Shown: piece after piece, positions 5,607 to 39,592 of the stretch
Layout: the number at the start of each line of letters is the position of its first letter
Numbering within the stretch: position 1 is the stretch's first letter
NCBI GenBank assembly: GCA_029856365.1
Contig: JAHQWW010000004.1
Coordinates: forward strand, 50,580-114,579
Direction of reading: 5' to 3'
Length of the DNA: 64,000 bases
Source of the DNA: Candidatus Hodarchaeota archaeon
GTDB lineage: Archaea; Asgardarchaeota; Heimdallarchaeia; Hodarchaeales; Hodarchaeaceae
Program-made: the position numbers and the translations under genes
The notes under the pieces: model-generated
What the model was told of the DNA's origin: nothing
The model's input: only the letters and a program-made list of their open reading frames with translations
Databases searched by the model: none

Positions 5607-8189
5607 TCATTTAGCTTTTTGGATCCGCATTTGTACTAGATTCTTTAAATCATTGTATAAGTTATTTACCAATGCCTGTGAGAGTGAAAATAATCTCGCC
5701 ACATAATCGTTAGTAATTTGCTTTATTGATTTTGGGGTTCCTTGTAAGACAGAGAATGGAGAATAGTCTAAAAGCTGTGAAAAAGCGTGAAATATATCTT
5801 TTGAATAAGTCTTGACTAATAAATCGTAGTTAGGAATTTTAAGCAATTCATATTCATAAACTTTGATATCTAAACCGCCTTCACCCAAATTACTACGTCC
5901 CAAAAGTTCTAATTGTAAAGTGGTAAAAATAGAATTAAGGTACAAGAAATAACTAGTAAATAAGAGGTCACCTTGTTTAAATTTAGTATTAATAAATTGG
6001 ATACCATATAAACGAGCATCAAAATAAAAATCTTGCGGATTATAGAAAAATGGAAATCGGTCATTGATTGTCATGAGGCAAAGAAGGTTGAAGGACTCAT
6101 ATTCATGTGATGGTAGACTATACCAATTTTTCCGTGAACTACACGTTGGTCTTTGGTTGAATTTATTACCCACGGACGGAATCCATTTCTCTCCCCAACG
6201 AATGTATTTTCTTATGCCTGTTTTTAATCGATTAATGGGAGAAGGGGAAGCAATCAAAATAACTACAAAATTTAGGTCTTTTTCATGAATCTCATAATTT
6301 GTGAGACTCCGAGGGGATTTGACTAAATAATTAGGAACCCAAGTAGAACCATCGTTGTCTTTAAAAGAATACTCCCAAGAATATTTTTCTTGTCCAATAT
6401 CACGATGCATCCAATAATCCTTTTCAATGATGAACATCGGTTCACTTGGATGAAATCCTTGAGCTTTAAATTGCTTAATTACTAGCTCATCCTTTAAATA
6501 TAACATTAAATCTCCAGTGTCTGAATCCCAGCTAGATGTAAAGAATGCATTTGATTTACCTGGTTTACCCACATAAAAAAAGTCATTTGCTCCACTTGTA
6601 AACCCCCTTCGGACATGAGCCACTTCTCCCAATATAATTAGCTTTTCATCAAGCTTTTTTATTAGTTTGAAGTAGTCTATTGGAGCGCGAAAATATATTC
6701 CCCATTTAGATTTCGAGAAAAGCTCTTTTTGTTTCACAGAAACAACTTGAATCCTTGATGAGTAATCTTTGAGATGGGAAATCTTTTTATCAACCAGTAG
6801 TTCAAGATCTAATATGTTGTTAATTGATACAAAGTTAACCAAGTTTTCAGAGTTGGTAACTTCTTGATATGCCTCCATTTTCTTTCGTTTAAGCTTCAGG
6901 ATAGCTGTATTAACATCTGCAGTTGGAATAACCTTTTGTATTCTAGAATTAATAATAAATTCAATCAAATAATGGTCTAAAATGAATTGTTGGAGTTGTT
7001 GACCATAAACTACATCCAACCAAGAATTAGGAATAATTAATCCGACATTATCTTCTTCATCCAAGAGACTAGTTGCATGCACTAAAAAATAAACATATAA
7101 ACCTGATCTTCCTGATAATGAAGTTCTGCTATAAGAGGGGGTTGTTTCAATTTTTTGGAGATCTAACAGGATTTTCTCTTTTAAAAACTCCTTATATTCT
7201 GTTGTGAGTATCTCATGACGAGTATAGGGAGGATTCATTAATAACGTGGTCATCCCTGAGTTTTTCATTAACAATTCTAATGTTGAGGAGTCACAATTGA
7301 AGAAATCATAACGATAAATCCGCCAATCAGCCATGGAGTTTGGATTTATTAAAAGAAAATAATTGATAGCACTCTCTGCAATATCTGCTAAAACAGGGTC
7401 TAGTTCAACACCAATAAGCTCAATCTGATTGTACTGAATTGTTCTAGACTCAATTAAGACTCTTAAAGCACCTAAAAGGAATATTCCTGTTCCACATGCA
7501 GGATCGATAATTCTGGTGGTTTTTTCTGTTAAATTCTGTTTACAGATGAAATCTACAACCGGTAATGGTGTGAAGATTTGCCCTTGTAGTTGTTTTTGGT
7601 ACTCTGGGATTCCTATTTCGAATATATATGGTAGTAATAGCTGATTTCCGCTTTTAATATCCCCTCTAATTTTACAAATAAGATTAATGATTTCTAGACA
7701 AGAATCCCAGTCTTTAAACATGAAAATAAGAAGTTTATTAAGAGGAAAACCCTCATAATCCAAAATAGGGGTTTTCGGTTCAGATTTATTTGCTAATCTC
7801 CAAAGATTCTCTAAATAACCGACAAATTGATTTCGAGCTTCTTCTAAATTAGAGGAATCTTCTAAAGGGGACTGAATCAGGAGAGAAATTTTTTCTAGAA
7901 ATGAATTTAGCTCAGGAGTATTTTCTAACTTCTTCAATGAGAGCTGAATTTTATCATAAAGGAGAGTAATCAATATTTTTGATAGTGGTTGTACGAATTT
8001 TAAGGGCTTATTTTGCCATTCATTCCATGAAACCTCGTCTAAAACCTCATAAATTCGTTCTTGAAGTGGTAGTTGGTGAATGAATTGCTTTTGTATGTAA
8101 GTTTCCACTGAAGGGAGAAGAATTTGAAAAAAAGATAAAAAGTATTGTGGTTGCATTTTTCCAATTGACAACATTTCTGTGGATCTCAT
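5607..8189 (-). CDS. gamma-class N6-adenine DNA methyltransferase
   Basis: GQIFTP, IIDPACGTGIFL, GVELD, LMNPPY, VRRGFTSGANDFF, C-terminal GRSNLGEGGLDIKVYE. Confidence 0.9.
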   Translation of the reverse strand: MRSTEMLSIGKMQPQYFLSFFQILLPSVETYIQKQFIHQLPLQERIYEVLDEVSWNEWQNKPLKFVQPLSKILITLLYDKIQLSLKKLENTPELNSFLEKISLLIQSPLEDSSNLEEARNQFVGYLENLWRLANKSEPKTPILDYEGFPLNKLLIFMFKDWDSCLEIINLICKIRGDIKSGNQLLLPYIFEIGIPEYQKQLQGQIFTPLPVVDFICKQNLTEKTTRIIDPACGTGIFLLGALRVLIESRTIQYNQIELIGVELDPVLADIAESAINYFLLINPNSMADWRIYRYDFFNCDSSTLELLMKNSGMTTLLMNPPYTRHEILTTEYKEFLKEKILLDLQKIETTPSYSRTSLSGRSGLYVYFLVHATSLLDEEDNVGLIIPNSWLDVVYGQQLQQFILDHYLIEFIINSRIQKVIPTADVNTAILKLKRKKMEAYQEVTNSENLVNFVSINNILDLELLVDKKISHLKDYSSRIQVVSVKQKELFSKSKWGIYFRAPIDYFKLIKKLDEKLIILGEVAHVRRGFTSGANDFFYVGKPGKSNAFFTSSWDSDTGDLMLYLKDELVIKQFKAQGFHPSEPMFIIEKDYWMHRDIGQEKYSWEYSFKDNDGSTWVPNYLVKSPRSLTNYEIHEKDLNFVVILIASPSPINRLKTGIRKYIRWGEKWIPSVGNKFNQRPTCSSRKNWYSLPSHEYESFNLLCLMTINDRFPFFYNPQDFYFDARLYGIQFINTKFKQGDLLFTSYFLYLNSIFTTLQLELLGRSNLGEGGLDIKVYEYELLKIPNYDLLVKTYSKDIFHAFSQLLDYSPFSVLQGTPKSIKQITNDYVARLFSLSQALVNNLYNDLKNLVQMRIQKAK

Positions 8190-19548: not shown

Positions 19549-20880
19549 ATGTTTGAGTTAATCTTTATCGGCCTACTTGTATTTGGTGCTATTTATGTCT
19601 TTTTCTTTCTGATTTACTCTTCTATTAAGGAAGAAAAGAATTTTGCTCTAGATGTATACCGATATCTCAGCCGAAGATATCCAAAAACTGTCATTGTGGA
19701 TTACGGAGGGATCTCATCTGATCCAATCATTCATTCTCGTAATGCTGGTCCATTTAAACTCATTGAAGTCAAAGTTATTACAGAAAAAGAAGCGAATAAG
19801 ACTGATCAGGATCTAATTTTGCGAGGGGAAGTTGATCCTCAAAAATTTCAAAAAGGAGAGATGTCAGCCAACCTCTCCCTAGATCCTCAGTTCCGATGGG
19901 ATCGCCACGTTCGAGATCTTGAAATAGGTATGCCAAAGATAGATAATCGTTTTATCATTTCTTCTGATGATCCCCTTTTTCCACGTCAGTTATTAACTCA
20001 AACAGATTTAGGAAACCTTCTCCAAAATAGCTTTGATTTGGAGGGTTATTTTATTAGATGGTTTGAAAGTCCCGTTATTCAGGTACGTATGGAAACAATG
20101 AACTCTAATAGCTTCATTCAAGCTTTTAACATTCTCCTTGGAACTATCGGTGCCCTTTCCGAGAAAGGTTTTCTAACCCGAAATATTGGGAAAATGAGAA
20201 AATCAGATGTTCAAATTCCGTCCTTCTTATCAACTTCAAAGGTAGATGAAATTGAAGATAAAAAACAAGTGGATACAAAATTAGTGGATACTCCCACACC
20301 AGAAAAGATCATTTCGGAACCAGAAGAACCTATCCTCACTTGGAAACCACTTCCAGGCATTTCAACCGAAATCACAAAGCCATATGCCATTCAAGATCAA
20401 GAAGAAGCTGTTGAAAGTCCATATCAGTCCTTTTTTAGCTCTATTAGTTATCAAGCCAAAAAAATTGAATTTAAACCTACTCATGTTAGAATATTAACCT
20501 ATTCAAGAGCAGCTCAAGAGATAATTGTGACATTTCCCGAAAATGAACGTGCTTTATTTTCCACATTTACTGGCCGCTCCCCATCTGAAGTTTTTGAACT
20601 CCAAATTAATTTTCAAGAAAAAGCACGATCAATAGATTGGAGTGATGCGTGGAAAGACATAACCATTTCAGGCCCTCCAGATATTATAGGAAAATTACAA
20701 ACTCGAACAGGAATTGCCCATCGGATTACAAACACTGGTGAAACTATGGTAACAGTGAAGGGTCACCCCCATAAAGGGATAGAATATAAACTCGTGGTTC
20801 CCAAAACAATACGAGGAATCAATGCAGGCTATTCTCTCCTAAAAGATATGATTTGGTTTTTTGAAATGATTTTCCTGTGA
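19549..20880 (+). CDS. hypothetical membrane-anchored protein, two soluble domains joined by a Pro/Glu-rich linker
   Basis: N-terminal TM (aa 1-27), 443-aa ORF, AGGTG SD. Confidence 0.75.
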   Translation: MFELIFIGLLVFGAIYVFFFLIYSSIKEEKNFALDVYRYLSRRYPKTVIVDYGGISSDPIIHSRNAGPFKLIEVKVITEKEANKTDQDLILRGEVDPQKFQKGEMSANLSLDPQFRWDRHVRDLEIGMPKIDNRFIISSDDPLFPRQLLTQTDLGNLLQNSFDLEGYFIRWFESPVIQVRMETMNSNSFIQAFNILLGTIGALSEKGFLTRNIGKMRKSDVQIPSFLSTSKVDEIEDKKQVDTKLVDTPTPEKIISEPEEPILTWKPLPGISTEITKPYAIQDQEEAVESPYQSFFSSISYQAKKIEFKPTHVRILTYSRAAQEIIVTFPENERALFSTFTGRSPSEVFELQINFQEKARSIDWSDAWKDITISGPPDIIGKLQTRTGIAHRITNTGETMVTVKGHPHKGIEYKLVVPKTIRGINAGYSLLKDMIWFFEMIFL

Positions 20881-21101
20881 GGATTGATTGGAGTATGTAA
20901 TCAATTCTTATAAATTAAAGAAAGAAATTAATAAAAGAGATATAAATCGCTTTCTGAAATCGGAAAAGCTGTTAAAACTGAAACTTTGAGAACAACCAAA
21001 TTCAGAACTTTCGGATAGACTCTCGAGTAAAGCATATTAAAAACCAATAGAACTTTTACCTGTCTTTGAAAGCTTGAATAAACCTAAAAGAGAGATAGCT
21101 T

Positions 21102-21731
21102 GTGACGGTGCTTAAGATCGTACTAATTGGCGATGGTGGTGTCGGTAAAACCGCTATTCGGGAAAGATACCTTGGTAAAGGTTTCAAAGCCCAGTACCTA
21201 CTGACAATTGGTGCAGATTTCGCTATGAGGGACGATACTATCAAAGGTGAACCTATTCGATATCAAATATGGGACCTAGCAGGACAACAACGCTTCGATG
21301 CGGTTCGAGAAGTCTACTATAAAGGCAGTGTTGGTGCTCTCCTCGTTTACGATGTTACCCGTCCTGATTCTTACTTTAACACTCCTAAATGGATTAATGA
21401 ACTGTGGACAAATAATGGTCGCGGTCGAGTGCCCATTATCGTTGTTGCTAATAAAATCGATATGCGTGAATTATCCGATGATACTGTCTCTCCAGAACAA
21501 GGAAGGATCTTCACTGAACGGCTTACAAAGCTAACTAGACCAGAAGGATTTGATTGTTACTTCTGTGAAACATCTGCCAAGACAGGAGTTAACATTCAAG
21601 CTGCTTTTTCATTACTTGGCGAAAACATCATGAGATTTGTTAGTAAACAACGAAAAACAAGTCGTACCACAACAACTCGATTACGGGCTGCAGCGCAACA
21701 ACGATCTCAACGCGTTTCAAGACAATATTAA
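21102..21731 (+). CDS. Ras-superfamily (Rab-like) small GTPase with a basic C-terminal tail
   Basis: G1 GDGGVGKT, TIGADF, G3 WDLAGQ, G4 NKID, G5 ETSAK. Confidence 0.95.
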   Translation: MTVLKIVLIGDGGVGKTAIRERYLGKGFKAQYLLTIGADFAMRDDTIKGEPIRYQIWDLAGQQRFDAVREVYYKGSVGALLVYDVTRPDSYFNTPKWINELWTNNGRGRVPIIVVANKIDMRELSDDTVSPEQGRIFTERLTKLTRPEGFDCYFCETSAKTGVNIQAAFSLLGENIMRFVSKQRKTSRTTTTRLRAAAQQRSQRVSRQY

Positions 21732-21734
21732 CCA

Positions 21735-21752
21735 TCTTTTCTCTTTTTTCCT
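21735..21752 (+). terminator. archaeal oligo(U)-type terminator
   Basis: TCTTTTCTCTTTTTTCCT directly after the GTPase stop codon. Confidence 0.5.
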
Positions 21753-21820
21753 CTATTATCTTCATGAAATATTTTAGAAAGTATTCCATCTTTGAATACT
21801 GTATGGAAACATGTGAATCT

Positions 21821-22528
21821 TTAAAAAAGTGATCTAAAGTAAACTAAAATATGTTTCATACTAATTTTTGATTCTCCTGCTTCTCGTGGCTGAAATGCAT
21901 AAATAAATTCCCCAATTGAAGTCTTTCGAGGCATCACCTTAAGGAGATCAAACAGTAACTTGTATCCTTTGGGGGAAATAGTTTTAGGATTTTGAATTAT
22001 TAGCTCTGTTATAAATTGAGTTTCTCCCCCGAAGAAACCACTCATAATATCTTTCGGGCGTGGCCGTCGCCTTATCAACAATGAGAATTTCCCGAGAGTA
22101 GTTGCTCCCCAAGAAATGAGCTTACGAGTTAAACTCCATCCCTCTACACTTGAACGGCTTCCAATAACCAGCTCATTTCCTTCTGATAGTAGTTGAATCC
22201 CATCTGCAATACATTCTGGAGGATGTTGAAAATCACAGTCAATTACAAAAAAATAATCAGTTCTAGTAATTTTCAAAGCATCAACTAATGAAATTGTTAA
22301 CCCTTTAATCAATTCATTTTTACGATCTAAAAAGGTAATATTGGGATTTTTAGCACCCCAGTTTAAAACAACTTCTACGGTTCCATCTGTGGATCCATCA
22401 TCAGCTACAATAATTGAAACTTCAGAATATAATGATAATAATCTAGTTATCATCTTATCAACGTTACTTTTTTCATTTAATGTGGGAATAATAACTGTTA
22501 TCTGTTTAGTAAAGGTACTTTCATTCAT
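21821..22528 (-). CDS. GT2 polyprenol/dolichol-phosphate mannose synthase-like glycosyltransferase
   Basis: VIIPTLNE, ADDGSTDGT, IDCDFQHPP, IGSR, DIMSGFF, GYKLL, PREAGESK. Confidence 0.9.
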   Translation of the reverse strand: MNESTFTKQITVIIPTLNEKSNVDKMITRLLSLYSEVSIIVADDGSTDGTVEVVLNWGAKNPNITFLDRKNELIKGLTISLVDALKITRTDYFFVIDCDFQHPPECIADGIQLLSEGNELVIGSRSSVEGWSLTRKLISWGATTLGKFSLLIRRRPRPKDIMSGFFGGETQFITELIIQNPKTISPKGYKLLFDLLKVMPRKTSIGEFIYAFQPREAGESKISMKHILVYFRSLF

Positions 22529-23155
22529 AAGAAACTTCCATTTGCTTTTTTTTCTTTTTTTTTCTGATATATAGTCCGATATATATGTTTTTCAGATAGG
22601 ACAGACTTACTTCTGGGTTCTGATTGCACATTCTAGATTGATTGATTTTAAGATAATCAGTCGTAGATTGTACTTTCTCTTCTTCCATTTAGAATAATTT
22701 CTTCTTAATGACTTCGAGATGATCATTATCTTTTCTAGTCTTTTTGGATTTCTTCTATATCCTTTCGAATGATTTTTGATTATTATTGCTTTTTATTCTC
22801 AAGGATATATAATCCAATTATTTGTAGGGGATGTCAGGTGTCGTCTTGCATACACATAAGGTTCTTTTTATGGTATTCAAACAATAATGATCAAGAGTAT
22901 TTCTGTGTGATTAAAATTGCACTGAAGGCCATTATCGAAGTAATAAGAATATGGATTAAATATTATTGTCTAGAAACAAGCTAAATTTCTAAAGGCGGAT
23001 TATTTACGAGATCTTCTTGCTGTATAGGTTACAATTGCTAAAAACACAATTAAAAGAGTGCCACTCCCCAGCCAAGGGAATATAAATAGAGTGAAAGATC
23101 TGTCTATTCTGTTAACTTATTAATAGAAGATGCAGCGGTTCCCCCCACTCTTTAA

Positions 23156-23308
23156 CTATAGATCAATAATTTTCTTTAAAAGATAAAACAAAAATACTAA
23201 GCCACTAGTGGGTAAACCGAATAGTATCAGAATCGCAAGAATAACAAATAAGGCTTCTAAAATGATAAATTTGTCATCAAATCCAAGAGATTGGATAAAT
23301 TTGAACAT
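23156..23308 (-). CDS. putative 50-aa membrane micro-protein (not in the ORF track)
   Basis: MFKFIQSLGFDDKFIILEALFVILAILILFGLPTSGLVFLFYLLKKIIDL, translated by hand. Confidence 0.4.
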   Translation of the reverse strand: MFKFIQSLGFDDKFIILEALFVILAILILFGLPTSGLVFLFYLLKKIIDL

Positions 23309-23770
23309 ATTTGCTATTCTAGTTTGGGATTACAAGTGAGTCTTAGAACAGTACTTCAAAAATTTGCAGAAGGATTTTCTGTTAATGGAATCTTTCTGCA
23401 AACTCCTCAGGAAGTCTTTCCAATAATCCAACAGAGAGCTGATTTTCTTTTAGTACTTAAAAGGTATCCTGATCTCCAAGTTGGTGTTTCGGAAGTAATA
23501 ATGGATGATAAGAAAGTTGGTGCTTTAGTAGACTCTCTCAATAATAGGACCAAAATCATCATTCTCACAGCACCAAAGAACATTCAAGAAGTAGCTTCTC
23601 ATTGGAAGCGCTTCTTGCCTGTGGTCCGAAAACAAATCAATATAGATGACTTTATTCATCAAGAAAGTATCGAAACAAAATTGATCAATCGATTAGAAGA
23701 TATTCGAATAGCACTCAGCAAAACAGCTACAATTCTGAAGGAGAGAATTAATTATGACTCAAAACTCTAA
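23291..23770 (+). CDS. putative Roadblock/LC7-like (profilin-like fold) protein; start probably GTG 23336
   Basis: Pattern of helix (LRTVLQKFAE), strand (VNGIFLQT), strands (EVIMD, GALVDSL, KIIILT) and helix (NIQEVASHWKRFLPVVRKQI); fold inferred by eye. Confidence 0.55.
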   Translation: MDKFEHICYSSLGLQVSLRTVLQKFAEGFSVNGIFLQTPQEVFPIIQQRADFLLVLKRYPDLQVGVSEVIMDDKKVGALVDSLNNRTKIIILTAPKNIQEVASHWKRFLPVVRKQINIDDFIHQESIETKLINRLEDIRIALSKTATILKERINYDSKL

Positions 23771-25115
23771 TCCTCAAGATGAAATTGAACTTCAACTTGC
23801 GCAAAGGATCATCGAATTAACGAAAGCTATAGAACTAAACAAGTCAATGATTGAAAAGATCATGACTGACTTAGAACAAGGAAATTCGAAGATAGATGAG
23901 TGGGAAAAACAGATACAGGATTGGGATTTAAACCTAGGGACAAGGTTTGATGAAATAAATAAGCAATTCAGTAATTTAGAGGAAAAGTTTAAACAACAAT
24001 CCTCAACTATAGAACAGAAATTTGAAGAAATCTCAACCCAATTTAGTAATTTAGAGGAAAAGTTTGAACAACAATCCTCAACTGTAGAACAGAAATTTGA
24101 AGAAATCTCAACCCAATTTAGTAATTTAGAGGAAAAGTTTGAACAACAATCCTCAACCGTAGAACAGAAATTTGAAGAACTATCAACCAAATTTGCTGGG
24201 TTTGAAAAGACTCAGAGTAATCAAGAAGATCTAATTTCAGCCCAACAGCAAGCTATTGAGGAACAAAATACAGAAATTAAACATCGTATTGAGAAAGAAG
24301 ATTTTACTACAACCATTGAAGGTATTAATGAGATAAATTCCATTCTAAAACAAAACCAAGAATTGTTTCAATCGGAATTAAAGGATCATGTTGAAAAGAC
24401 TCAAGAACGATTTGACACCTTAGCAAAAACCATTGAATTAATAGGAGATGGGTTGTCACAACTCGAACACCATAAAGAAAATCATGCTACTCTTCTAGAA
24501 GAGCTTCGGGGAAGTTTAAGTCAATTTAAATACAAATTGAAAGAATTAATTACTCTAACGAAAGATGATCAAAGAGCTCATTTTGATAATTTTTCACGAA
24601 TTGTTGAAAGCTATAACGAGAATATCCGAACTGAATTAACAATCATGGCACAATCGTTAAAAGAATCAGATACACAGATCCTCGATGAAGTATCAGCTAG
24701 TTTTACACCTAAAAGGATTGGAAAAGAACTTCAACAAACAATCGCTGATTTGGCAAGCGAATTAAAATCAGAGGCTCAGAAAACAAGAGACGATTTAGTA
24801 GAAGGACTCCAGAAAAATGTTCAAGAATACGAAACAACAATGGAGAAGCAAAATACGGCTATAAAGAATTATCAACAACAATTAGAACACTTTCAAGATG
24901 AGATTCTGGCAATTATTGATAGGAAAGTTAATGAAAAATATGAGGTAGTATCTTCTTTGTTATCTAAGGTGGCAATTCAAGCAGAAGAACTCGTTCTCCT
25001 CATCAAAACCTCTGAAATTCAAATTTCTACTTCTCCCTTTCAAAAGAACCAAAATCAGTTTGATATTGGTGAAAATGACTCTAAAAAACCGACTGAAGCT
25101 GAAAATAAAGACTGA
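23754..25115 (+). CDS. long coiled-coil protein with three 25-aa tandem repeats
   Basis: E/Q/K-rich heptad pattern along 453 aa; overlaps the upstream gene by 17 nt. Confidence 0.85.
   Translation: MTQNSNPQDEIELQLAQRIIELTKAIELNKSMIEKIMTDLEQGNSKIDEWEKQIQDWDLNLGTRFDEINKQFSNLEEKFKQQSSTIEQKFEEISTQFSNLEEKFEQQSSTVEQKFEEISTQFSNLEEKFEQQSSTVEQKFEELSTKFAGFEKTQSNQEDLISAQQQAIEEQNTEIKHRIEKEDFTTTIEGINEINSILKQNQELFQSELKDHVEKTQERFDTLAKTIELIGDGLSQLEHHKENHATLLEELRGSLSQFKYKLKELITLTKDDQRAHFDNFSRIVESYNENIRTELTIMAQSLKESDTQILDEVSASFTPKRIGKELQQTIADLASELKSEAQKTRDDLVEGLQKNVQEYETTMEKQNTAIKNYQQQLEHFQDEILAIIDRKVNEKYEVVSSLLSKVAIQAEELVLLIKTSEIQISTSPFQKNQNQFDIGENDSKKPTEAENKD
23964..24188 (+). repeat. 3 x 75-nt in-frame tandem repeat (QFSNLEEKFEQQSSTVEQKFEEIST)
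   Basis: Units start at 23964, 24039 and 24114 and are nearly identical in DNA. Confidence 0.95.
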
Positions 25116-25241
25116 TATATTTTCAATAAATGTAGTGTATCGATCGAAGTTTATGGAATGATATCAAAATAAAAAGTTTTTCTTAGAAAAAACCTCCTTA
25201 ATTGAAGAATACTCTTAAAATAAAGACGATGTGAAATAGCT

Positions 25242-25769
25242 GTGACGATAGAAAGGCCTCTCAAGATAGTGATTGCAGGAGAGAAGCATGTTGGTAAATC
25301 AACCCTCGTACATAGGTTTATTCACAATCAGTTTCCATTGAAAGGTTTATACTCCACAGTTGGATTTGATTTTACAATTAAAACACTAACTTTGGAGAAC
25401 GGGTCAACAGTAATAATCCATCTGTTTGATTTTGGAGGTGAACCTGGTTATAAAAAGATCTTTCCCCAATATGCTTCTGATAGTGATGGACTCATTCTTG
25501 CTTTTGATCCATCACGAGAGGAAACTTTAGACGCTCTACATGATTGGATACAGGTTTATCAACAACGAAAGCACCAAACAAAAAGTATCAATTTTCTTGT
25601 TTCTACAAAAGCTGACTTGGGTATCACCACATCCCCCCTTAAAATTAATGAATTTAGGAATAAATATTCCATAGAAGAATACTTCAAAACAAGTGCGGTC
25701 ACAGGAGAAAACACTCAAAGAGTTTTTCAACGAATGGCTGTCATTATTCAACAACAGAGAATGAGATGA
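25242..25769 (+). CDS. Rab-like small GTPase, divergent
   Basis: G1 GEKHVGKS, STVGFDF, G3 FDFGGE, atypical G4 STKAD, G5 TSAV. Confidence 0.9.
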   Translation: MTIERPLKIVIAGEKHVGKSTLVHRFIHNQFPLKGLYSTVGFDFTIKTLTLENGSTVIIHLFDFGGEPGYKKIFPQYASDSDGLILAFDPSREETLDALHDWIQVYQQRKHQTKSINFLVSTKADLGITTSPLKINEFRNKYSIEEYFKTSAVTGENTQRVFQRMAVIIQQQRMR

Positions 25770-25804
25770 AAATAGATAATTGAACTAAAGAGGCTTTATA
25801 CCAG

Positions 25805-26362
25805 ATGACTAGATTTATCGCTGACGCAAGTACTCTTACAGTTAAAGTGGTTGTAGCTGGTCCTGGAGGAGTGGGTAAAACTACACTACTAAAACGATAT
25901 GAAACAAATAATTTCATACCGGCAGTCAGTACTGTAGGTATCAATTTTCTAGTTAGAGATCAGGAAATTGGAGAAACGATTTTACGTGTTGCATATTGGG
26001 ATTACGCAGGGGAAGATCGGTTTCGATCTCTCTTCCCTGGTTATTGTCAAGGTTCATCTGGAGCCCTGGTGGCTTTTGACTCATCAAGAGTTCAAACTCT
26101 TGCTGAAATACCTGAATGGCTAAGAATGATCCGAGAACACAACGAACCAGACATTCCTATTGTTTTACTCGGAAATAAACTAGATACAACATCCACAGAA
26201 GCAAGAAAATTAGTAGCAGAATCTGCTAACAACTTTGTTAAGAAATATAACCTTTCAGGCTATTATTTATGCTCTGCAAAGACAGGTGATGGAATAGAAG
26301 CACCATTTTCTCATTTAGGGATTCTAATTATTGAATGTAAAAAACGTCAAAGATTCCTATAA
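25805..26362 (+). CDS. Rab-like small GTPase
   Basis: G1 GPGGVGKT, STVGINF, G3 WDYAGE, G4 NKLD, G5 CSAK. Confidence 0.93.
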   Translation: MTRFIADASTLTVKVVVAGPGGVGKTTLLKRYETNNFIPAVSTVGINFLVRDQEIGETILRVAYWDYAGEDRFRSLFPGYCQGSSGALVAFDSSRVQTLAEIPEWLRMIREHNEPDIPIVLLGNKLDTTSTEARKLVAESANNFVKKYNLSGYYLCSAKTGDGIEAPFSHLGILIIECKKRQRFL

Positions 26363-26400
26363 AGCTTTTTAATTCAAATAGTATCAGGTGACTGGGGGTA

Positions 26401-27900
26401 CTAGAGGATGGAATCGAGAATTCCGTTAATCTTTTTCTCAAAAAAGCCTCTGGCTGCTAGATAACGCTTGTAGAATTTTTCATATTCATCACGTACCATT
26501 TTCTCGTATGAAATGAGAAATAATAGAATTGTAGCTATTATAGCAGCGAATCCAGCTAATCCAAACATAATTGCTGTGAATGAGTATTCCCAATCAATTA
26601 AGACCAAGAATGCGGGTAAAAAACCGCCTATAATTGCTACAAATGGTTGTGTCCAAAGTGATCCAAATCTGTTTATTCCCATGAATTGTGCTTCTTTTCC
26701 TTCAGGAACGAGATCAGCAGGTAAAGAAGCACGAACAGATTCAATAAAAACCGCTCCAAAACCCCCTATAGCAGCAATAACGAAAAATAAATTATAATAA
26801 TTGCCAATTTCCATACCTGCAATTAAAAAACAGAATCCGGAATAAATAAGCGATCCTACGATGGCTGTTCTCACCTTACCGAATTTTCGGATGAACAATC
26901 CAGCTGGAATCGCCATAACGGCTGAAACCAAGCCTGCTACTAGTAGCGCTAAGGGTGCATCACCTTCTGGTAGCCCTACAGCGACCAGATGGATAAGCAA
27001 GTACAAAGCAACTGCTTCACTGGCAAATCCCCAAAATGATTGAACCAAAAACATCTTACCAAAATCAGATCCAGAAAAATTTAATAGGTATCGTGGTGTC
27101 TGTAGAATATCTGTAATAGGGGAGTCAATAGGGGGATACGGTGGATTTGCTTTTTCTACCAAAAAAAATACTATAATCCCTGCGAAAGTAATTGTTAATG
27201 CTGGAAATAAAAATAAACTAAATTCAGCAATAAAAGTAAGGTTAATCATCTCACTAAAATCTAAGAGAAGTATGGTAAAAGAATTAAAAAAAACTAATCC
27301 GATTAAACTACCCAAAACTGTGAATCCAGCTAAAATTAAACCCACCCATCCTCGCTGTTCCTTGGTAAACAGCTCTGATAATAAAGCCCCATGAGGGGAA
27401 GAGGCTAATCCTAAACCCACATATATAAGGAAAAAACACATTGGAAAAATAATTACCAACAGATCATCATCGACTGTTCCTGCAAAAATCGGAGTGAGAA
27501 GAAGCATCAACCCAGCAAGTAAACTTCCACCTAGAATATAGGGTGCGCGTGCTCCATATTTTGAACGATAGTCATCGGAAAAGGCACCCCCAATGATTAC
27601 AGTTCCAAGAAATCCGATTGAACCTGCAGCGATAGAATAACTAAAGATGGTTTCAGCAAGTTCTCGGGTCAAACCCAGTCCAAAAGTATTGGATCCTTCC
27701 AAATAGGAGAGCTTGAAATAAGCAATAATGAATGCGATAAATATGGCGTTAGCTGTCCCAAAAATGCCTAAAGCAAAGATATTTCGAACTTTCTGAGATA
27801 AAAGTCGCTTTTCTCTCAATTCTTCAGTTGTAAGAAATTTGTATTCTTTTTTATTCTCGGGTTTAACTTTATTTGATTTTTCTATGCCCATATATAACAC
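26401..27900 (-). CDS. MFS transporter (GPH/SLC45-like sugar permease)
   Basis: About 12 TM; GAFSDDYRSKYGARAPYI motif A; ALLSELFTKEQRG; LPADLVPEGKEAQFMG. Confidence 0.88.
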   Translation of the reverse strand: MLYMGIEKSNKVKPENKKEYKFLTTEELREKRLLSQKVRNIFALGIFGTANAIFIAFIIAYFKLSYLEGSNTFGLGLTRELAETIFSYSIAAGSIGFLGTVIIGGAFSDDYRSKYGARAPYILGGSLLAGLMLLLTPIFAGTVDDDLLVIIFPMCFFLIYVGLGLASSPHGALLSELFTKEQRGWVGLILAGFTVLGSLIGLVFFNSFTILLLDFSEMINLTFIAEFSLFLFPALTITFAGIIVFFLVEKANPPYPPIDSPITDILQTPRYLLNFSGSDFGKMFLVQSFWGFASEAVALYLLIHLVAVGLPEGDAPLALLVAGLVSAVMAIPAGLFIRKFGKVRTAIVGSLIYSGFCFLIAGMEIGNYYNLFFVIAAIGGFGAVFIESVRASLPADLVPEGKEAQFMGINRFGSLWTQPFVAIIGGFLPAFLVLIDWEYSFTAIMFGLAGFAAIIATILLFLISYEKMVRDEYEKFYKRYLAARGFFEKKINGILDSIL

Positions 27901-38247: not shown

Positions 38248-38787
38248 TTAGATTTCTTCTTCGAAGGAATGGAGGTACTGACGAACGAGATCTTTGTATA
38301 TTCCTGGAATCACTTTCCCTCCGATCTTCGCAGACACCTCATAGAATGAAGCCCCGTATTGATTGGCGTAGTTTCTTCCTTCCTGACTAGTCACCTCACG
38401 TACATCTCCAAGATCAAGTTTATTCCCGACAATTGCTAAAATAGCTTCCTCTCCGACAACACTTCGGAAATCAGCAATCCACTGGTCTAGATCATCAAAC
38501 GTGGCATGATTTGTAATGTCATAAACTATCATACATCCAAAAGCCCCTGTAAAATAGGCTTTTCTAAGATTCCCAAAGTACTCCTGGCCAGCTGTATCAA
38601 CGAGAAGTAGTTTAATTTGTTGGTTGTTAACATTGACCCGTTTTGTAGTAACATCTACCCCTATTGTTGGTGTATAACTTGAAGAGAATTTGTTTTCTGC
38701 ATATCTTCGAATAAGGCTGGTCTTACCAACTCTGTAGGAACCCGCAGAGCAGATCTTTAATAACCAGTCATCCTTAGATGCACTCAT
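38248..38787 (-). CDS. Rab-like small GTPase
   Basis: G1 GSYRVGKT, YTPTIGVD, G3 DTAGQE, G4 NKLD, G5 EVSAK. Confidence 0.95.
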   Translation of the reverse strand: MSASKDDWLLKICSAGSYRVGKTSLIRRYAENKFSSSYTPTIGVDVTTKRVNVNNQQIKLLLVDTAGQEYFGNLRKAYFTGAFGCMIVYDITNHATFDDLDQWIADFRSVVGEEAILAIVGNKLDLGDVREVTSQEGRNYANQYGASFYEVSAKIGGKVIPGIYKDLVRQYLHSFEEEI

Positions 38788-39049: not shown

Positions 39050-39592
39050 TTAGAGACTAAATTTCTCTTCTTCTTGTAGATACAATAAATATCGTCGCAC
39101 AAGCTCCTCATATATTGCTGGAATCACTTCCCCTCCGAGCTTTGCAGATGTTTCATAAAAAGGGACATCATATTGAGTTGCAACTTTTTTTCCCTCTTCA
39201 CTAGTCACACAACGTAAATTTTCCAAGTCTATTTTATTCCCAATGATCGAAATAGCTGCATTTTCTCCGACTACACTTTGGAAATCACCTATCCAACGGT
39301 CAAGATCTTCGAATGTATCACGTCGGGTAATATCGTAAACTATGATGCATCCAAATGCTCCCTCAAAATATGTCTTTCGAATTCTTCCAAAATACTCTTC
39401 GCCTGCTGTATCTACCAATACGATCTTAACTTGATGGTTATCAACAGTGATTCTTTTTGTAGTAATATCTACTCCGATAGTGGGTAGATAGTCGTGGATA
39501 AACTTACCTTCTGCAAAACGACGAATAAGGCTGGTCTTACCTACTTGGTATGACCCAGCAGAACAGATTTTTAGCACCCATTCGTTTCGCAT
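39050..39592 (-). CDS. Rab-like small GTPase, tandem paralogue of 38248-38787
   Basis: G1 GSYQVGKT, YLPTIGVD, G3 DTAGEE, G4 NKID, G5 ETSAK. Confidence 0.95.
   Translation of the reverse strand: MRNEWVLKICSAGSYQVGKTSLIRRFAEGKFIHDYLPTIGVDITTKRITVDNHQVKIVLVDTAGEEYFGRIRKTYFEGAFGCIIVYDITRRDTFEDLDRWIGDFQSVVGENAAISIIGNKIDLENLRCVTSEEGKKVATQYDVPFYETSAKLGGEVIPAIYEELVRRYLLYLQEEEKFSL

What the first reader, a model, noticed from the sequence alone, without database searches (positions are those of the whole stretch)
23291..26362. Putative operon: Roadblock-like protein, long coiled-coil and two small GTPases
Seen: four co-oriented genes (17-nt overlap, then gaps of 126 and 35 nt) encoding a small alpha/beta protein with Roadblock-like topology and a C-terminal helix, a 453-aa coiled-coil, and two dissimilar Rab-like GTPases. 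Established: Roadblock proteins regulate small GTPases (MglA/MglB, Rag/Ragulator), and long coiled-coils are classic Rab effectors and tethers (golgins, EEA1). Inference: a self-contained regulator-effector-GTPase module, possibly a prokaryotic precursor of tethering or polarity machinery. The Roadblock call is by eye only.
Basis: partly seen in the sequence, partly recalled or inferred. Interest (0 to 1): 0.75.

Follow-up and report, generated by a model that had tools for sequence, protein, structure and literature searches.

The report
Hidden Roadblock, helical rod, two GTPases
In Hodarchaeales, Asgard archaea discussed as close relatives of eukaryotes, a protein with a hidden Roadblock fold and a long helical rod are encoded as a coupled pair beside two unusual Rab-like GTPases that lack the catalytic glutamine, which names testable partners for archaeal GTPases whose regulators are otherwise hard to assign.

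Summary
Four co-oriented genes lie at the stated coordinates, with a 17-nt overlap and then gaps of 126 and 35 nt.

- **P1**: 144 aa, true start GTG 23336. No sequence method sees a known family. Its AlphaFold2 model (pLDDT 81) has the exact Roadblock topology. Its best structural matches are Roadblock domains of Rag, LAMTOR and MglB (Z 9 to 11.1), ahead of GAF and profilin.
- **P2**: 453 aa, an all-helical, heptad-periodic rod. The N-terminal half is variable and repetitive, the C-terminal half is conserved, and neither has a known relative.
- **P3 and P4**: 30% identical to each other, and their best solved matches are Rabs. Both carry Glu in place of the switch-II Gln in every orthologue. 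Only 3 of about 44 GTPases in this genome do so.

The order P1-P2-P3-P4 is unbroken in all 18 whole loci (20 with truncated ones). P1 and P2 overlap in 14 of 17. In a second family, P1 and a short P2 stay coupled with a P3-like or P4-like GTPase nearby. The P1 family was found in one order only (21 of 23 genomes there, 0 of about 375 other Asgard genomes).

Most likely this is a lineage-specific Roadblock/scaffold plus GTPase switch module. Binding, GAP/GEF activity and cellular role are all inferred. A golgin-type tether or trafficking precursor is not supported.

The scan met this same cluster in five other genomes, and one follow-up there reached a similar verdict.

The parts
23336..23770 (+). 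P1: 144-aa cryptic Roadblock-fold protein. The Roadblock core is residues 1-100 and a long amphipathic C-terminal helix covers 103-143. The longest ORF starts at TTG 23291, but homologues start at GTG 23336.
   Evidence: AF2 model: pLDDT 81, order alpha-beta-beta-alpha-beta-beta-beta-alpha-alpha. Foldseek top hits are LAMTOR, Rag CTD, MglB and Asgard Roadblock2/3. VIA gives Z 11.1 to 8yl2_A (rmsd 2.2 A over 96 aa) and 9-10 to MP1/p14, MglB and MglC. No Pfam, NCBIfam, HHalign or PDB sequence match. F10, G18, W90 and R92 are invariant across the wide family.
23754..25115 (+). P2: 453-aa helical rod. Its ATG lies inside the last 17 nt of P1, with GGAGAG 9 nt upstream.
   Evidence: AF2 predicts three long helices and a disordered tail from residue 421. 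Heptad periodicity is about 12 SD above shuffles. Only compositional coiled-coil hits in Pfam, NCBIfam and PDB, and all PDB hits fall in residues 8-268, i.e. almost wholly in the N-terminal rod. Foldseek found no match. Homologues occur only in the same Asgard group.
23964..24194 (+). 75-nt (25-aa) tandem repeat, 3.1 copies, inside the variable N-terminal rod of P2.
   Evidence: Tandem Repeats Finder: 95% matches, score 413. Orthologue lengths range from 370 to 465 aa, and 224-231 aa in the sister family.
24501..25013 (+). Conserved C-terminal half of P2 (about residues 250-420), including the family signature I-I-D-R-K-V-N-E-K-Y-E.
   Evidence: The 35 invariant columns all lie in residues 259-421. 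The same C-terminal signature is kept in the short P2 of G022 and G023.
25116..25241 (.). 126-nt spacer between P2 and P3. It may hold an internal promoter or terminator; this is unresolved.
   Evidence: The spacer is 52-188 nt in 17 loci and is poorly conserved except for about the last 25 nt. No Rfam match.
25242..25769 (+). P3: 175-aa Rab-like GTPase. G1 is GEKHVGKS, G3 is DFGGE (Gln replaced by Glu), G4 is TKAD, G5 is TSAV.
   Evidence: Pfam Ras E 1.4e-25. Best PDB match is Rab30/Rab6. The motifs are invariant in the aligned orthologues. Orthologues scoring over 300 bits were found only in genomes that also have P1.
25805..26362 (+). P4: 185-aa Rab-like GTPase. G1 is GPGGVGKT, G3 is DYAGE (Gln replaced by Glu), G4 is NKLD, G5 is CSAK.
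   Evidence: Pfam Ras E 6.5e-33. Best PDB match is Rab18/Rab11. The motifs are invariant. Orthologues occur in 20 of 21 genus genomes and 2 of 2 sister-family genomes, and in 0 of 17 genomes of other families of the class.
21102..21731 (+). GTPase0: a canonical Rab-like GTPase (DLAGQ, NKID) with a polybasic C-terminal tail. It is a possible further member of the neighbourhood, not of the operon.
   Evidence: Pfam Ras E 1e-42. It is 82-95% identical and syntenic in the genus loci that reach far enough upstream. Its homologue lies directly beside the P3-like gene in G022.

Best explanation
This is a Hodarchaeales-specific small-GTPase switch module. P1 is a highly diverged Roadblock-fold protein. 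By analogy with all characterised Roadblock proteins it probably forms a dimer. It is made in fixed proportion with the helical rod P2, because the two genes are translationally coupled. Its long, conserved, charged C-terminal helix most likely docks on the conserved C-terminal half of P2. The P1-P2 complex would then serve as the regulator platform (GAP or GEF) and scaffold or effector for the two Rab-like GTPases P3 and P4. Both GTPases lack the catalytic glutamine. They therefore either hydrolyse GTP very slowly or need a catalytic residue supplied in trans. The invariant basic residues of P1 are candidates for that role: R92 in the HWKR motif of helix 3, and K42/R43 at the end of the short helix 2. 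Shown here: the genes, their conservation, the predicted fold, the motif substitutions, the gene order and the shared phyletic pattern. Inferred: every physical contact, the direction of regulation and the cellular role. For the role, a polarity or positioning function like MglA-MglB with the coiled-coil protein AglZ is the most economical analogy.
For: Fold:
- The AF2 model of P1 has the Roadblock order of elements.
- An unbiased scan of 48,161 chains ranks Roadblock/longin GTPase regulators in 23 of the first 24 places (Z 8.4-11.1, 93-111 aligned residues, rmsd 2.2-3.5 A). The exception is the uncharacterised mouse protein 2gnx at rank 21 (Z 8.8). GAF (best Z 8.3) and profilin (best Z 8.2) first appear at ranks 25 and 29.

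Coupling of P1 and P2:
- They overlap by 4-26 nt in 14 of 17 loci.
- They overlap by 13 nt in the sister family member G023.
- They are adjacent in every locus seen.

Link to the GTPases:
- The order P1-P2-P3-P4 is unbroken in the 15 genome and 3 metagenome loci that contain all four genes, and in 2 truncated genome loci as far as they reach. Meanwhile the flanks change: the MFS gene is present or absent, and there are insertions upstream.
- In the sister family, G023 keeps P1, a short P2 and a P3-like gene (DFGGE, TKND). G022 keeps a P4-like gene (DYAGE) 3.3 kb downstream.
- A tree places these genes as orthologues (99/97 and 100/97 support).

Shared phyletic pattern:
- P1 and P4 were found only in families f1 and f2 of about 399 and 41 genomes searched respectively. 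P3 orthologues score over 300 bits only in f1 and about 165 bits in f2, and P2 homologues come only from MAGs named for this group.

Shared oddity of the two GTPases:
- Glu replaces Gln in only 3 of about 44 GTPases of this genome with a readable G3 motif, and two of the three are P3 and P4.
- This holds although P3 and P4 are only 30% identical and are not resolved as sisters.

Precedent:
- MglB is a Roadblock dimer that acts as GAP for MglA through its two-helix face (PMC3199381).
- Bacterial group 1 Rup GTPases lack the catalytic Gln and have a coiled-coil neighbour (PMC4316618).
Against: - No interaction was tested.
- The Roadblock assignment rests on one predicted model built from a 20-sequence alignment. 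No sequence method links P1 to Robl_LC7 (HHalign probability 0.25%).
- GAF and profilin folds score only 1-3 Z units lower.
- P1's helix 2 has only 7 residues, whereas in MglB helix 2 forms both the dimer interface and the GTPase-binding face. The canonical binding mode may therefore not apply.
- Within the genus-level group the whole 13-kb region is syntenic, so gene order there is weak evidence. The stronger test rests on only two fragmentary genomes of the sister family, and in one of them (G022) the cluster is broken up.
- The 52-188-nt spacer before P3 allows separate transcription.
Confidence: 0.55

Rival explanations
1. P1 and P2 form a structural or cytoskeletal pair with no functional tie to the GTPases. 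The adjacency would be inherited synteny within a narrow clade.
For: The whole region from hyp443 to SMC is syntenic across the genus-level group. A 52-188-nt spacer separates P2 from P3. In G022 the P3-like gene lies on another contig, and three unrelated genes separate P2 from the P4-like gene.
Against: No insertion or inversion ever separates the four genes in the 18 whole loci, although the flanks do change. G023 keeps the order P1, P2, P3-like. All four families share one narrow phyletic range. Every characterised Roadblock-fold protein that matched works with a GTPase or an NTPase motor.
Confidence: 0.2
2. A split Rag/Ragulator-like unit. P3 and P4 would sit as a pseudo-heterodimer on a P1 Roadblock dimer, which stands in for the fused C-terminal Roadblock domains of RagA/RagC. 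P2 would play the part of the helical LAMTOR1-like wrap.
For: The best structural match of P1 is the Roadblock C-terminal domain of an Asgard RagA-like GTPase (8yl2_A: Z 11.1, 16% identity). Two dissimilar GTPases are encoded side by side, as for the one MK-D1 Rag-like pair found in an operon (PMC10933270).
Against: P3 and P4 are single-domain and Rab-like by sequence. Pfam Gtr1_RagA gives no hit for either and their best solved matches are Rabs. The Z advantage of the Rag CTD over other Roadblocks is only about 1. P2 shows no similarity to LAMTOR1.
Confidence: 0.1
3. A golgin- or EEA1-like tether with its Rabs: a precursor of eukaryotic membrane-tethering machinery.
For: P2 is a long coiled coil and P3/P4 are Rab-like GTPases. 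The lineage is one discussed as close to eukaryotes (earlier notes).
Against: P2 has no transmembrane segment and no GRIP, GRAB or other recognised domain. Its rod is repeat-driven, varies in length and is halved in the sister family. P3 and P4 have no conserved C-terminal Cys for prenylation. The module is confined to one order. No homology to any eukaryotic tether was detected.
Confidence: 0.05
4. An accessory of chromosome organisation, acting with the SMC-ScpAB operon that follows the cluster.
For: SMC follows P4 directly and in the same orientation in the loci that lack the MFS gene (L018, L021-L024, L028, L031, L080). The weak NCBIfam hits of P2 are to SMC/Rad50 coiled coils.
Against: The SMC-like hits of P2 are compositional (E 5e-8 against a cut-off of 567 bits). 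In G022 and G023 the P1-P2 pair is not next to SMC. No DNA-binding domain is present.
Confidence: 0.05

Closest known systems
MglA-MglB polarity switch (Myxococcus, Thermus), with the coiled-coil MglA partner AglZ and the Roadblock paralogue MglC
   Same: A Roadblock-fold protein is encoded with a Ras-superfamily GTPase. MglB matches the P1 model at Z 9.0-9.5 and MglC at 9.3. MglB also carries a C-terminal helix beyond the Roadblock core. A long coiled-coil protein belongs to the same system (AglZ, cited in PMC4316618).
   Different: P1 has no sequence similarity to MglB or Robl_LC7, and its helix 2 is much shorter. P3 and P4 are not MglA: they keep the G3 Asp and have Glu where MglA has its catalytic Gln82 (PMC3199381). 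There are two GTPases rather than one, and the coiled-coil gene is translationally coupled to the Roadblock gene.
Asgard operon of a LAMTOR1-like Roadblock protein, a Rab-like GTPase and a DENN-domain protein (Liu et al., bioRxiv 10.1101/2020.10.19.343400)
   Same: It is an Asgard gene cluster that joins a Roadblock-superfamily protein with a Rab-like GTPase, and it is read as a GTPase-regulator module.
   Different: There is no DENN gene here (Pfam scan of neighbours). The partners are a helical rod and two Gln-less GTPases. That operon is reported in most Asgard lineages, whereas this one was found in a single order.
Rag GTPase heterodimer with Ragulator (LAMTOR1-5)
   Same: The best structural matches of P1 are Rag C-terminal domains and LAMTOR2/3 (MP1/p14). 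There are two dissimilar GTPases. A helical protein partners the Roadblock protein.
   Different: P3 and P4 are single-domain and Rab-like, with no Gtr1_RagA signature. P2 is a long rod, not a short lipidated wrap. No homology is detectable.
Bacterial group 1 Rup GTPase neighbourhoods and Streptomyces conservons (CvnB Roadblock with CvnD GTPase) (PMC4316618)
   Same: Group 1 Rup GTPases lack the catalytic Gln and have a conserved coiled-coil neighbour. Conservons put a Roadblock protein and a GTPase in one operon, and the CvnB-type structures 3leq/3kye match P1 at Z 8.9-9.7.
   Different: Those systems include histidine kinases or membrane/OmpA proteins that are absent here. They have different GTPase families, and none has a tandem pair of GTPases.

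Membership tests
Roadblock/LC7 (Pfam PF03259; MglB, LAMTOR2/3, DYNLRB) | Sequence match to the Robl_LC7 profile | tested here: not met
   Neither P1 nor nine relatives hit PF03259, even at E up to 1. HHalign of the family profile against the nine canonical Robl_LC7 proteins of the same genome gives probability 0.25%. A profile search of PDB sequences found nothing.
Roadblock/LC7 (Pfam PF03259; MglB, LAMTOR2/3, DYNLRB) | Fold: a five-stranded antiparallel sheet between helix 2 on one side and helices 1 and 3 on the other, in the order alpha-beta-beta-alpha-beta-beta-beta-alpha (PMC3199381) | tested here: met
   Tested on a predicted model only. The order of elements is H3-14, E16-22, E27-32, H36-42, E50-56, E59-67, E73-78, H80-100. 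Z is 9-11.1 over 93-104 residues to Roadblock domains, which rank first in an unbiased scan. Helix 2 is unusually short at 7 residues.
Roadblock/LC7 (Pfam PF03259; MglB, LAMTOR2/3, DYNLRB) | Dimerisation through helix 2 and strand 3, and binding of an NTPase | not testable with these tools
Eukaryotic-type Rab GTPases | Canonical G motifs, including the switch-II DxxGQ | tested here: not met
   P3 has DFGGE and TKAD. P4 has DYAGE and NKLD. Both G3 motifs are invariant in all orthologues.
Eukaryotic-type Rab GTPases | C-terminal Cys prenylation motif | tested here: not met
   P3 ends QQQRMR. P4 ends ECKKRQRFL, and that Cys is not conserved in orthologues.
Eukaryotic-type Rab GTPases | Closest solved relatives are Rabs | tested here: met
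   Best PDB matches are Rab30/Rab6 (E 8e-19) for P3 and Rab18/Rab11 (E 5e-26) for P4. On a tree of this genome's GTPases, both branch outside the main Rab-like clade.
MglA family | Intrinsic catalytic Gln82 and Arg53 finger (PMC3199381) | tested here: not met
   Both proteins have Glu at the Gln position. The Arg finger was not assessed.
Rag/Gtr GTPases | G domain fused to a C-terminal Roadblock domain, and the Gtr1_RagA signature | tested here: not met
   P3 and P4 are 175 and 185 aa and single-domain. PF04670 gives no hit for either.
Golgin/EEA1-type coiled-coil tethers | A long coiled coil | tested here: met
   AF2 predicts about 400 residues of helix. Heptad signal is about 12 SD above shuffles.
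Golgin/EEA1-type coiled-coil tethers | A membrane anchor or targeting domain (TM, GRIP, GRAB, FYVE) | tested here: not met
   No Pfam domain scores above its cut-off. The sequence shows no long hydrophobic segment. The C-terminal tail is acidic and predicted to be disordered.
Golgin/EEA1-type coiled-coil tethers | GTP-dependent binding of a Rab or Arl | not testable with these tools
   This needs biochemistry or multimer modelling.
Asgard LAMTOR1-like Roadblock / Rab-like / DENN operon | A DENN-domain gene in the cluster | tested here: not met
   The Pfam scan of the four genes and four neighbours shows no DENN domain.

The most novel reading that the evidence does not exclude
P3 and P4 are a matched pair of Gln-less switches, and their hydrolysis is completed in trans by an invariant arginine of the cryptic Roadblock P1 (R92 or R43). 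That would make P1 a Roadblock GAP that, unlike MglB, supplies a catalytic residue. It would be held on a length-variable coiled-coil scaffold, and together these would form a positioning or polarity system specific to the archaeal order discussed as closest to eukaryotes.
Probability: 0.15. Interest if true: 0.8.

Novelty: new variant of a known kind. Interest (0 to 1): 0.55.

Why it matters
Asgard genomes encode dozens of small GTPases and Roadblock/longin proteins. However, these genes are generally not in operons together, so matching a given GTPase to its regulator from the genome layout is difficult (PMC10933270). Dey, Thattai and Baum raised whether operons could reveal GTPase targets as an open question (PMC4917890).

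This cluster gives one concrete and conserved assignment: a Roadblock-fold family that sequence searches miss, a coupled helical partner, and two specific Gln-less GTPases. All four proteins are small and soluble-looking, so the pairing can be tested directly in vitro. It also shows that counts of Asgard Roadblock proteins based on sequence profiles miss at least this family.

Tried and rejected
- **Sequence routes to a family for P1 all failed.** These were Pfam, NCBIfam, HHalign against the genome's own nine Robl_LC7 proteins, and a PDB profile search. An exhaustive HMM search of 1.84 billion proteins found only 17 clusters, all of similar small size except one doubtful 318-aa hit.
- **P2 has no recognisable relative.** The ESM Atlas gave no hit above 0.86. 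Foldseek found nothing. A PDB profile search returned only compositional coiled-coil hits, all within residues 8-268.
- **Context of the most distant P1 relatives (P0073-P0081) could not be obtained.** Single-protein scans found nothing. Profile A8 found only the known loci among 399 Asgard genomes, and that scan scored only 10 candidates per genome.
- **The apparent absence of P1 and P3 in G006 is an artefact.** A 100-N scaffold gap cuts the cluster there.
- **No RNA family** matches in 21000-27000.
- **The antisense 132-aa ORF at 23792-24190 was dismissed.** It lies on the repeat and has no support.
- **No conserved TATA box** could be shown in the P2-P3 spacer, so operon versus two transcription units stays open.
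- **Literature searches found no prior description.** Searches for DxxGE GTPases and for Asgard Rab-like proteins lacking the catalytic glutamine returned nothing.


Full report
**Observation**

The four ORFs exist as described, all on the + strand: 23291/23336-23770, 23754-25115, 25242-25769 and 25805-26362. The overlap is 17 nt and the gaps are 126 and 35 nt. The window is contig C18:50580-114579 of a 4.24-Mb, 84%-complete assembly.

Names attached to homologues (Hodarchaeota, Hodarchaeales, Heimdallarchaeota, Promethearchaeota MAGs) place the genome in the Asgard order Hodarchaeales. Earlier notes of this scan say the same.

**P1**

- Twenty-seven homologues were found. All that carry a name are Asgard, and nearly all are 141-146 aa. 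They begin at the position of GTG 23336, so the protein has 144 residues.
- No Pfam or NCBIfam family matches P1 or nine relatives.
- An AlphaFold2 model from a 20-sequence alignment has mean pLDDT 81, and 81-95 over residues 1-100. Its elements run H3-14, E16-22, E27-32, H36-42, E50-56, E59-67, E73-78, H80-100, H103-143. This is the Roadblock order described for MglB (PMC3199381). It is not the longin order, which has no N-terminal helix.
- Foldseek against the PDB lists LAMTOR subunits, Rag C-terminal domains, MglB and Asgard Roadblock2/3 (E 1e-3 to 3e-2, probability about 1).
- VIA-align gives Z 11.1 to the Roadblock domain of an Asgard RagA-like GTPase (8yl2_A, rmsd 2.2 A over 96 residues). 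It gives 9-10 to MP1/p14, RagC, Mon1-Ccz1, MglB and MglC.
- The Foldseek-independent scan of 48,161 chains puts Roadblock/longin regulators in 23 of the first 24 rows. The exception is an uncharacterised mouse protein (2gnx, Z 8.8). GAF (best Z 8.3) and profilin (best Z 8.2) appear only from ranks 25 and 29.

So the fold call is supported, with three caveats:

- It rests on one predicted model.
- Related sandwich folds score only 1-3 Z units lower.
- Helix 2, the dimer and GTPase face in MglB, has only seven residues here.

At sequence level the family stands alone. HHalign against the genome's nine canonical Robl_LC7 proteins gives probability 0.25%. A PDB profile search finds nothing. An exhaustive search of 1.84 billion representatives finds 17 clusters.

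Across the widest alignment only F10, G18, W90 and R92 are invariant. W90 falls on the hydrophobic stripe of helix 3 and R92 beside it; that R92 is exposed is an inference from helical periodicity. A basic pair at the end of helix 2 (K42/R43) is also kept in most members. The C-terminal helix has low confidence (pLDDT 57-71) but conserved charged residues (E110, E113, E121, D122, R124, K135, E136). That pattern is what one expects of a helix that needs a partner.

**P2**

- AlphaFold2 predicts three long helices (7-181, 188-316, 324-420) and a disordered acidic tail. pTM is 0.22, so their mutual arrangement is unknown.
- Hydrophobic residues follow a heptad pattern far above shuffled controls (0.52 against 0.26 +/- 0.02).
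- The N-terminal half is variable and holds a 75-nt tandem repeat of 3.1 copies at 95% identity. Orthologues range from 370 to 465 aa.
- The C-terminal half (about residues 250-420) holds all 35 invariant columns.
- No family, fold or Atlas cluster is related. All hits are compositional and fall within residues 8-268.

**P3 and P4**

- Both are single-domain Ras-superfamily GTPases whose best solved matches are Rabs. They are 30% identical to each other.
- P3 has GEKHVGKS, DFGGE, TKAD and TSAV. P4 has GPGGVGKT, DYAGE, NKLD and CSAK. These motifs are invariant in all orthologues.
- Among 54 Ras-like ORFs of this genome, 36 have DxxGQ and only three have DxxGE: P3, P4 and one further gene at window 39050-39592.
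- On a maximum-likelihood tree, P3 and P4 form two separate, well-supported lineages outside the main Rab-like clade. They are not resolved as sisters.
- Neither has a conserved C-terminal Cys.

**Conservation of the arrangement**

- P1 was found in 19 of 21 genomes of the same GTDB genus-level group and in 2 of 2 genomes of a second family of the order. It was found in none of 17 genomes of three other families of the class, and in none of about 375 other Asgard genomes. One caveat: the phylum scan scored only 10 candidates per genome.
- In G006, one of the two genus genomes without a P1 match, the cluster is cut by a 100-N scaffold gap. In G004, the other, which is 74% complete, P1 and orthologues of P3 and P4 were not found.
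- The order P1-P2-P3-P4 is unbroken in all 18 loci that contain the four genes, namely 15 genomes and 3 metagenome contigs. It is also unbroken in 2 truncated genome loci as far as they reach. Meanwhile the MFS gene downstream comes and goes, and insertions occur upstream.
- P1 and P2 overlap by 4-26 nt in 14 of 17 loci. The P3-P4 gap is 7-35 nt and the P2-P3 gap is 52-188 nt.
- Within this group the whole region is syntenic, so the sister family gives the more telling test.
  - In G023, P1 overlaps a 224-aa P2 by 13 nt, and a P3-like GTPase (DFGGE, TKND) follows after 132 nt.
  - In G022, P1 and a 231-aa P2 are followed by three unrelated genes and then a P4-like GTPase (DYAGE). The P3-like gene lies on another contig, beside a homologue of the upstream GTPase0.
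  - The tree confirms orthology of these genes.
- P3 orthologues (over 300 bits) and P4 orthologues occur only where P1 occurs. Other families reach only paralogue-level scores of 80-94 bits.

**Reading**

The P1-P2 pair is the fixed core and almost certainly forms a complex. The tie to P3 and P4 is strong but not absolute. The shared Gln-to-Glu change in two otherwise dissimilar GTPases suggests that they share one mode of regulation.

The best-supported mechanism is a Roadblock/scaffold plus GTPase switch module, whose steps are set out under Best explanation. The direction of regulation (GAP, GEF or effector) is open. MglB supplies no catalytic residue (PMC3199381). A GAP that completes a Gln-less active site would therefore be a new use of the fold, and P1's invariant basic residues make this testable.

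The golgin-type tether reading fails on the anchor, on the variable rod and on the narrow distribution.

**Comparison with what is known**

- Roadblock-GTPase pairing is an old prediction and a known kind, seen in MglA/MglB and in conservons (PMC4316618).
- One Asgard operon of a Roadblock protein, a Rab-like GTPase and a DENN protein has been described (10.1101/2020.10.19.343400).
- MK-D1 GTPase genes are generally not in operons with their candidate regulators (PMC10933270).
- My searches of the held literature found no description of this cluster or of DxxGE Asgard GTPases. The library is incomplete, so this is not proof of absence.

I file the finding as a new variant of a known kind.

**Earlier notes of this scan**

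First readers noted the same cluster in five other genomes. One follow-up (e1-5455146) reached a similar verdict. My tests were made independently on this window and agree with it.

Noticed in passing
window 21102-21731 (+): A third Rab-like GTPase with canonical DLAGQ/NKID motifs and a polybasic C-terminal tail. It is 82-95% identical across the genus and lies about 1.6 kb upstream of P1 in the loci that reach that far. Its homologue sits directly beside the P3-like gene in G022, so it may belong to the same functional neighbourhood.
   Followed up: partly
window 19549-20880 (+): A 443-aa orphan protein with an N-terminal transmembrane helix and no Pfam or NCBIfam match. It is syntenic upstream of GTPase0 in most relatives.
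   Followed up: no
window 22529-23335, incl. 23156-23308 (-): The spacer between the GT2 gene and P1 is 807 nt here, against roughly 125-350 nt in most relatives. It is unique in the genome and has no Rfam match. It contains a 50-aa ORF with a TM-like stretch, divergent from P1, that is 66% identical at the same place in the closest relative (L016).
   Followed up: partly
window 38248-38787 (-) and 39050-39592 (-): Two tandem Rab-like paralogues just after the SMC/ScpB locus. The second (DTAGE) is the only other GTPase of this genome with Glu in place of the switch-II Gln.
   Followed up: partly
G000:C161:4621-5595 (outside the window; locus L060): A canonical Robl_LC7 gene directly followed by a GTPase with a TKYD G4 motif, which is a classical MglB/MglA-like pair. 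On the tree this GTPase, P3 and P4 all branch outside the main Rab-like clade.
   Followed up: partly
window 23964-24194: The 25-aa repeat of P2 is 95% identical between copies at the DNA level, so the rod is still expanding in this lineage. The antisense 132-aa ORF at 23792-24190 is a by-product of the repeat.
   Followed up: yes
L065 (G006:C1:217000-231000), 7551-7650: A 100-N scaffold gap cuts the cluster right after the C-terminus of P3. This explains why this one-contig, 1.4-Mb assembly seemed to lack P1 and P3.
   Followed up: yes
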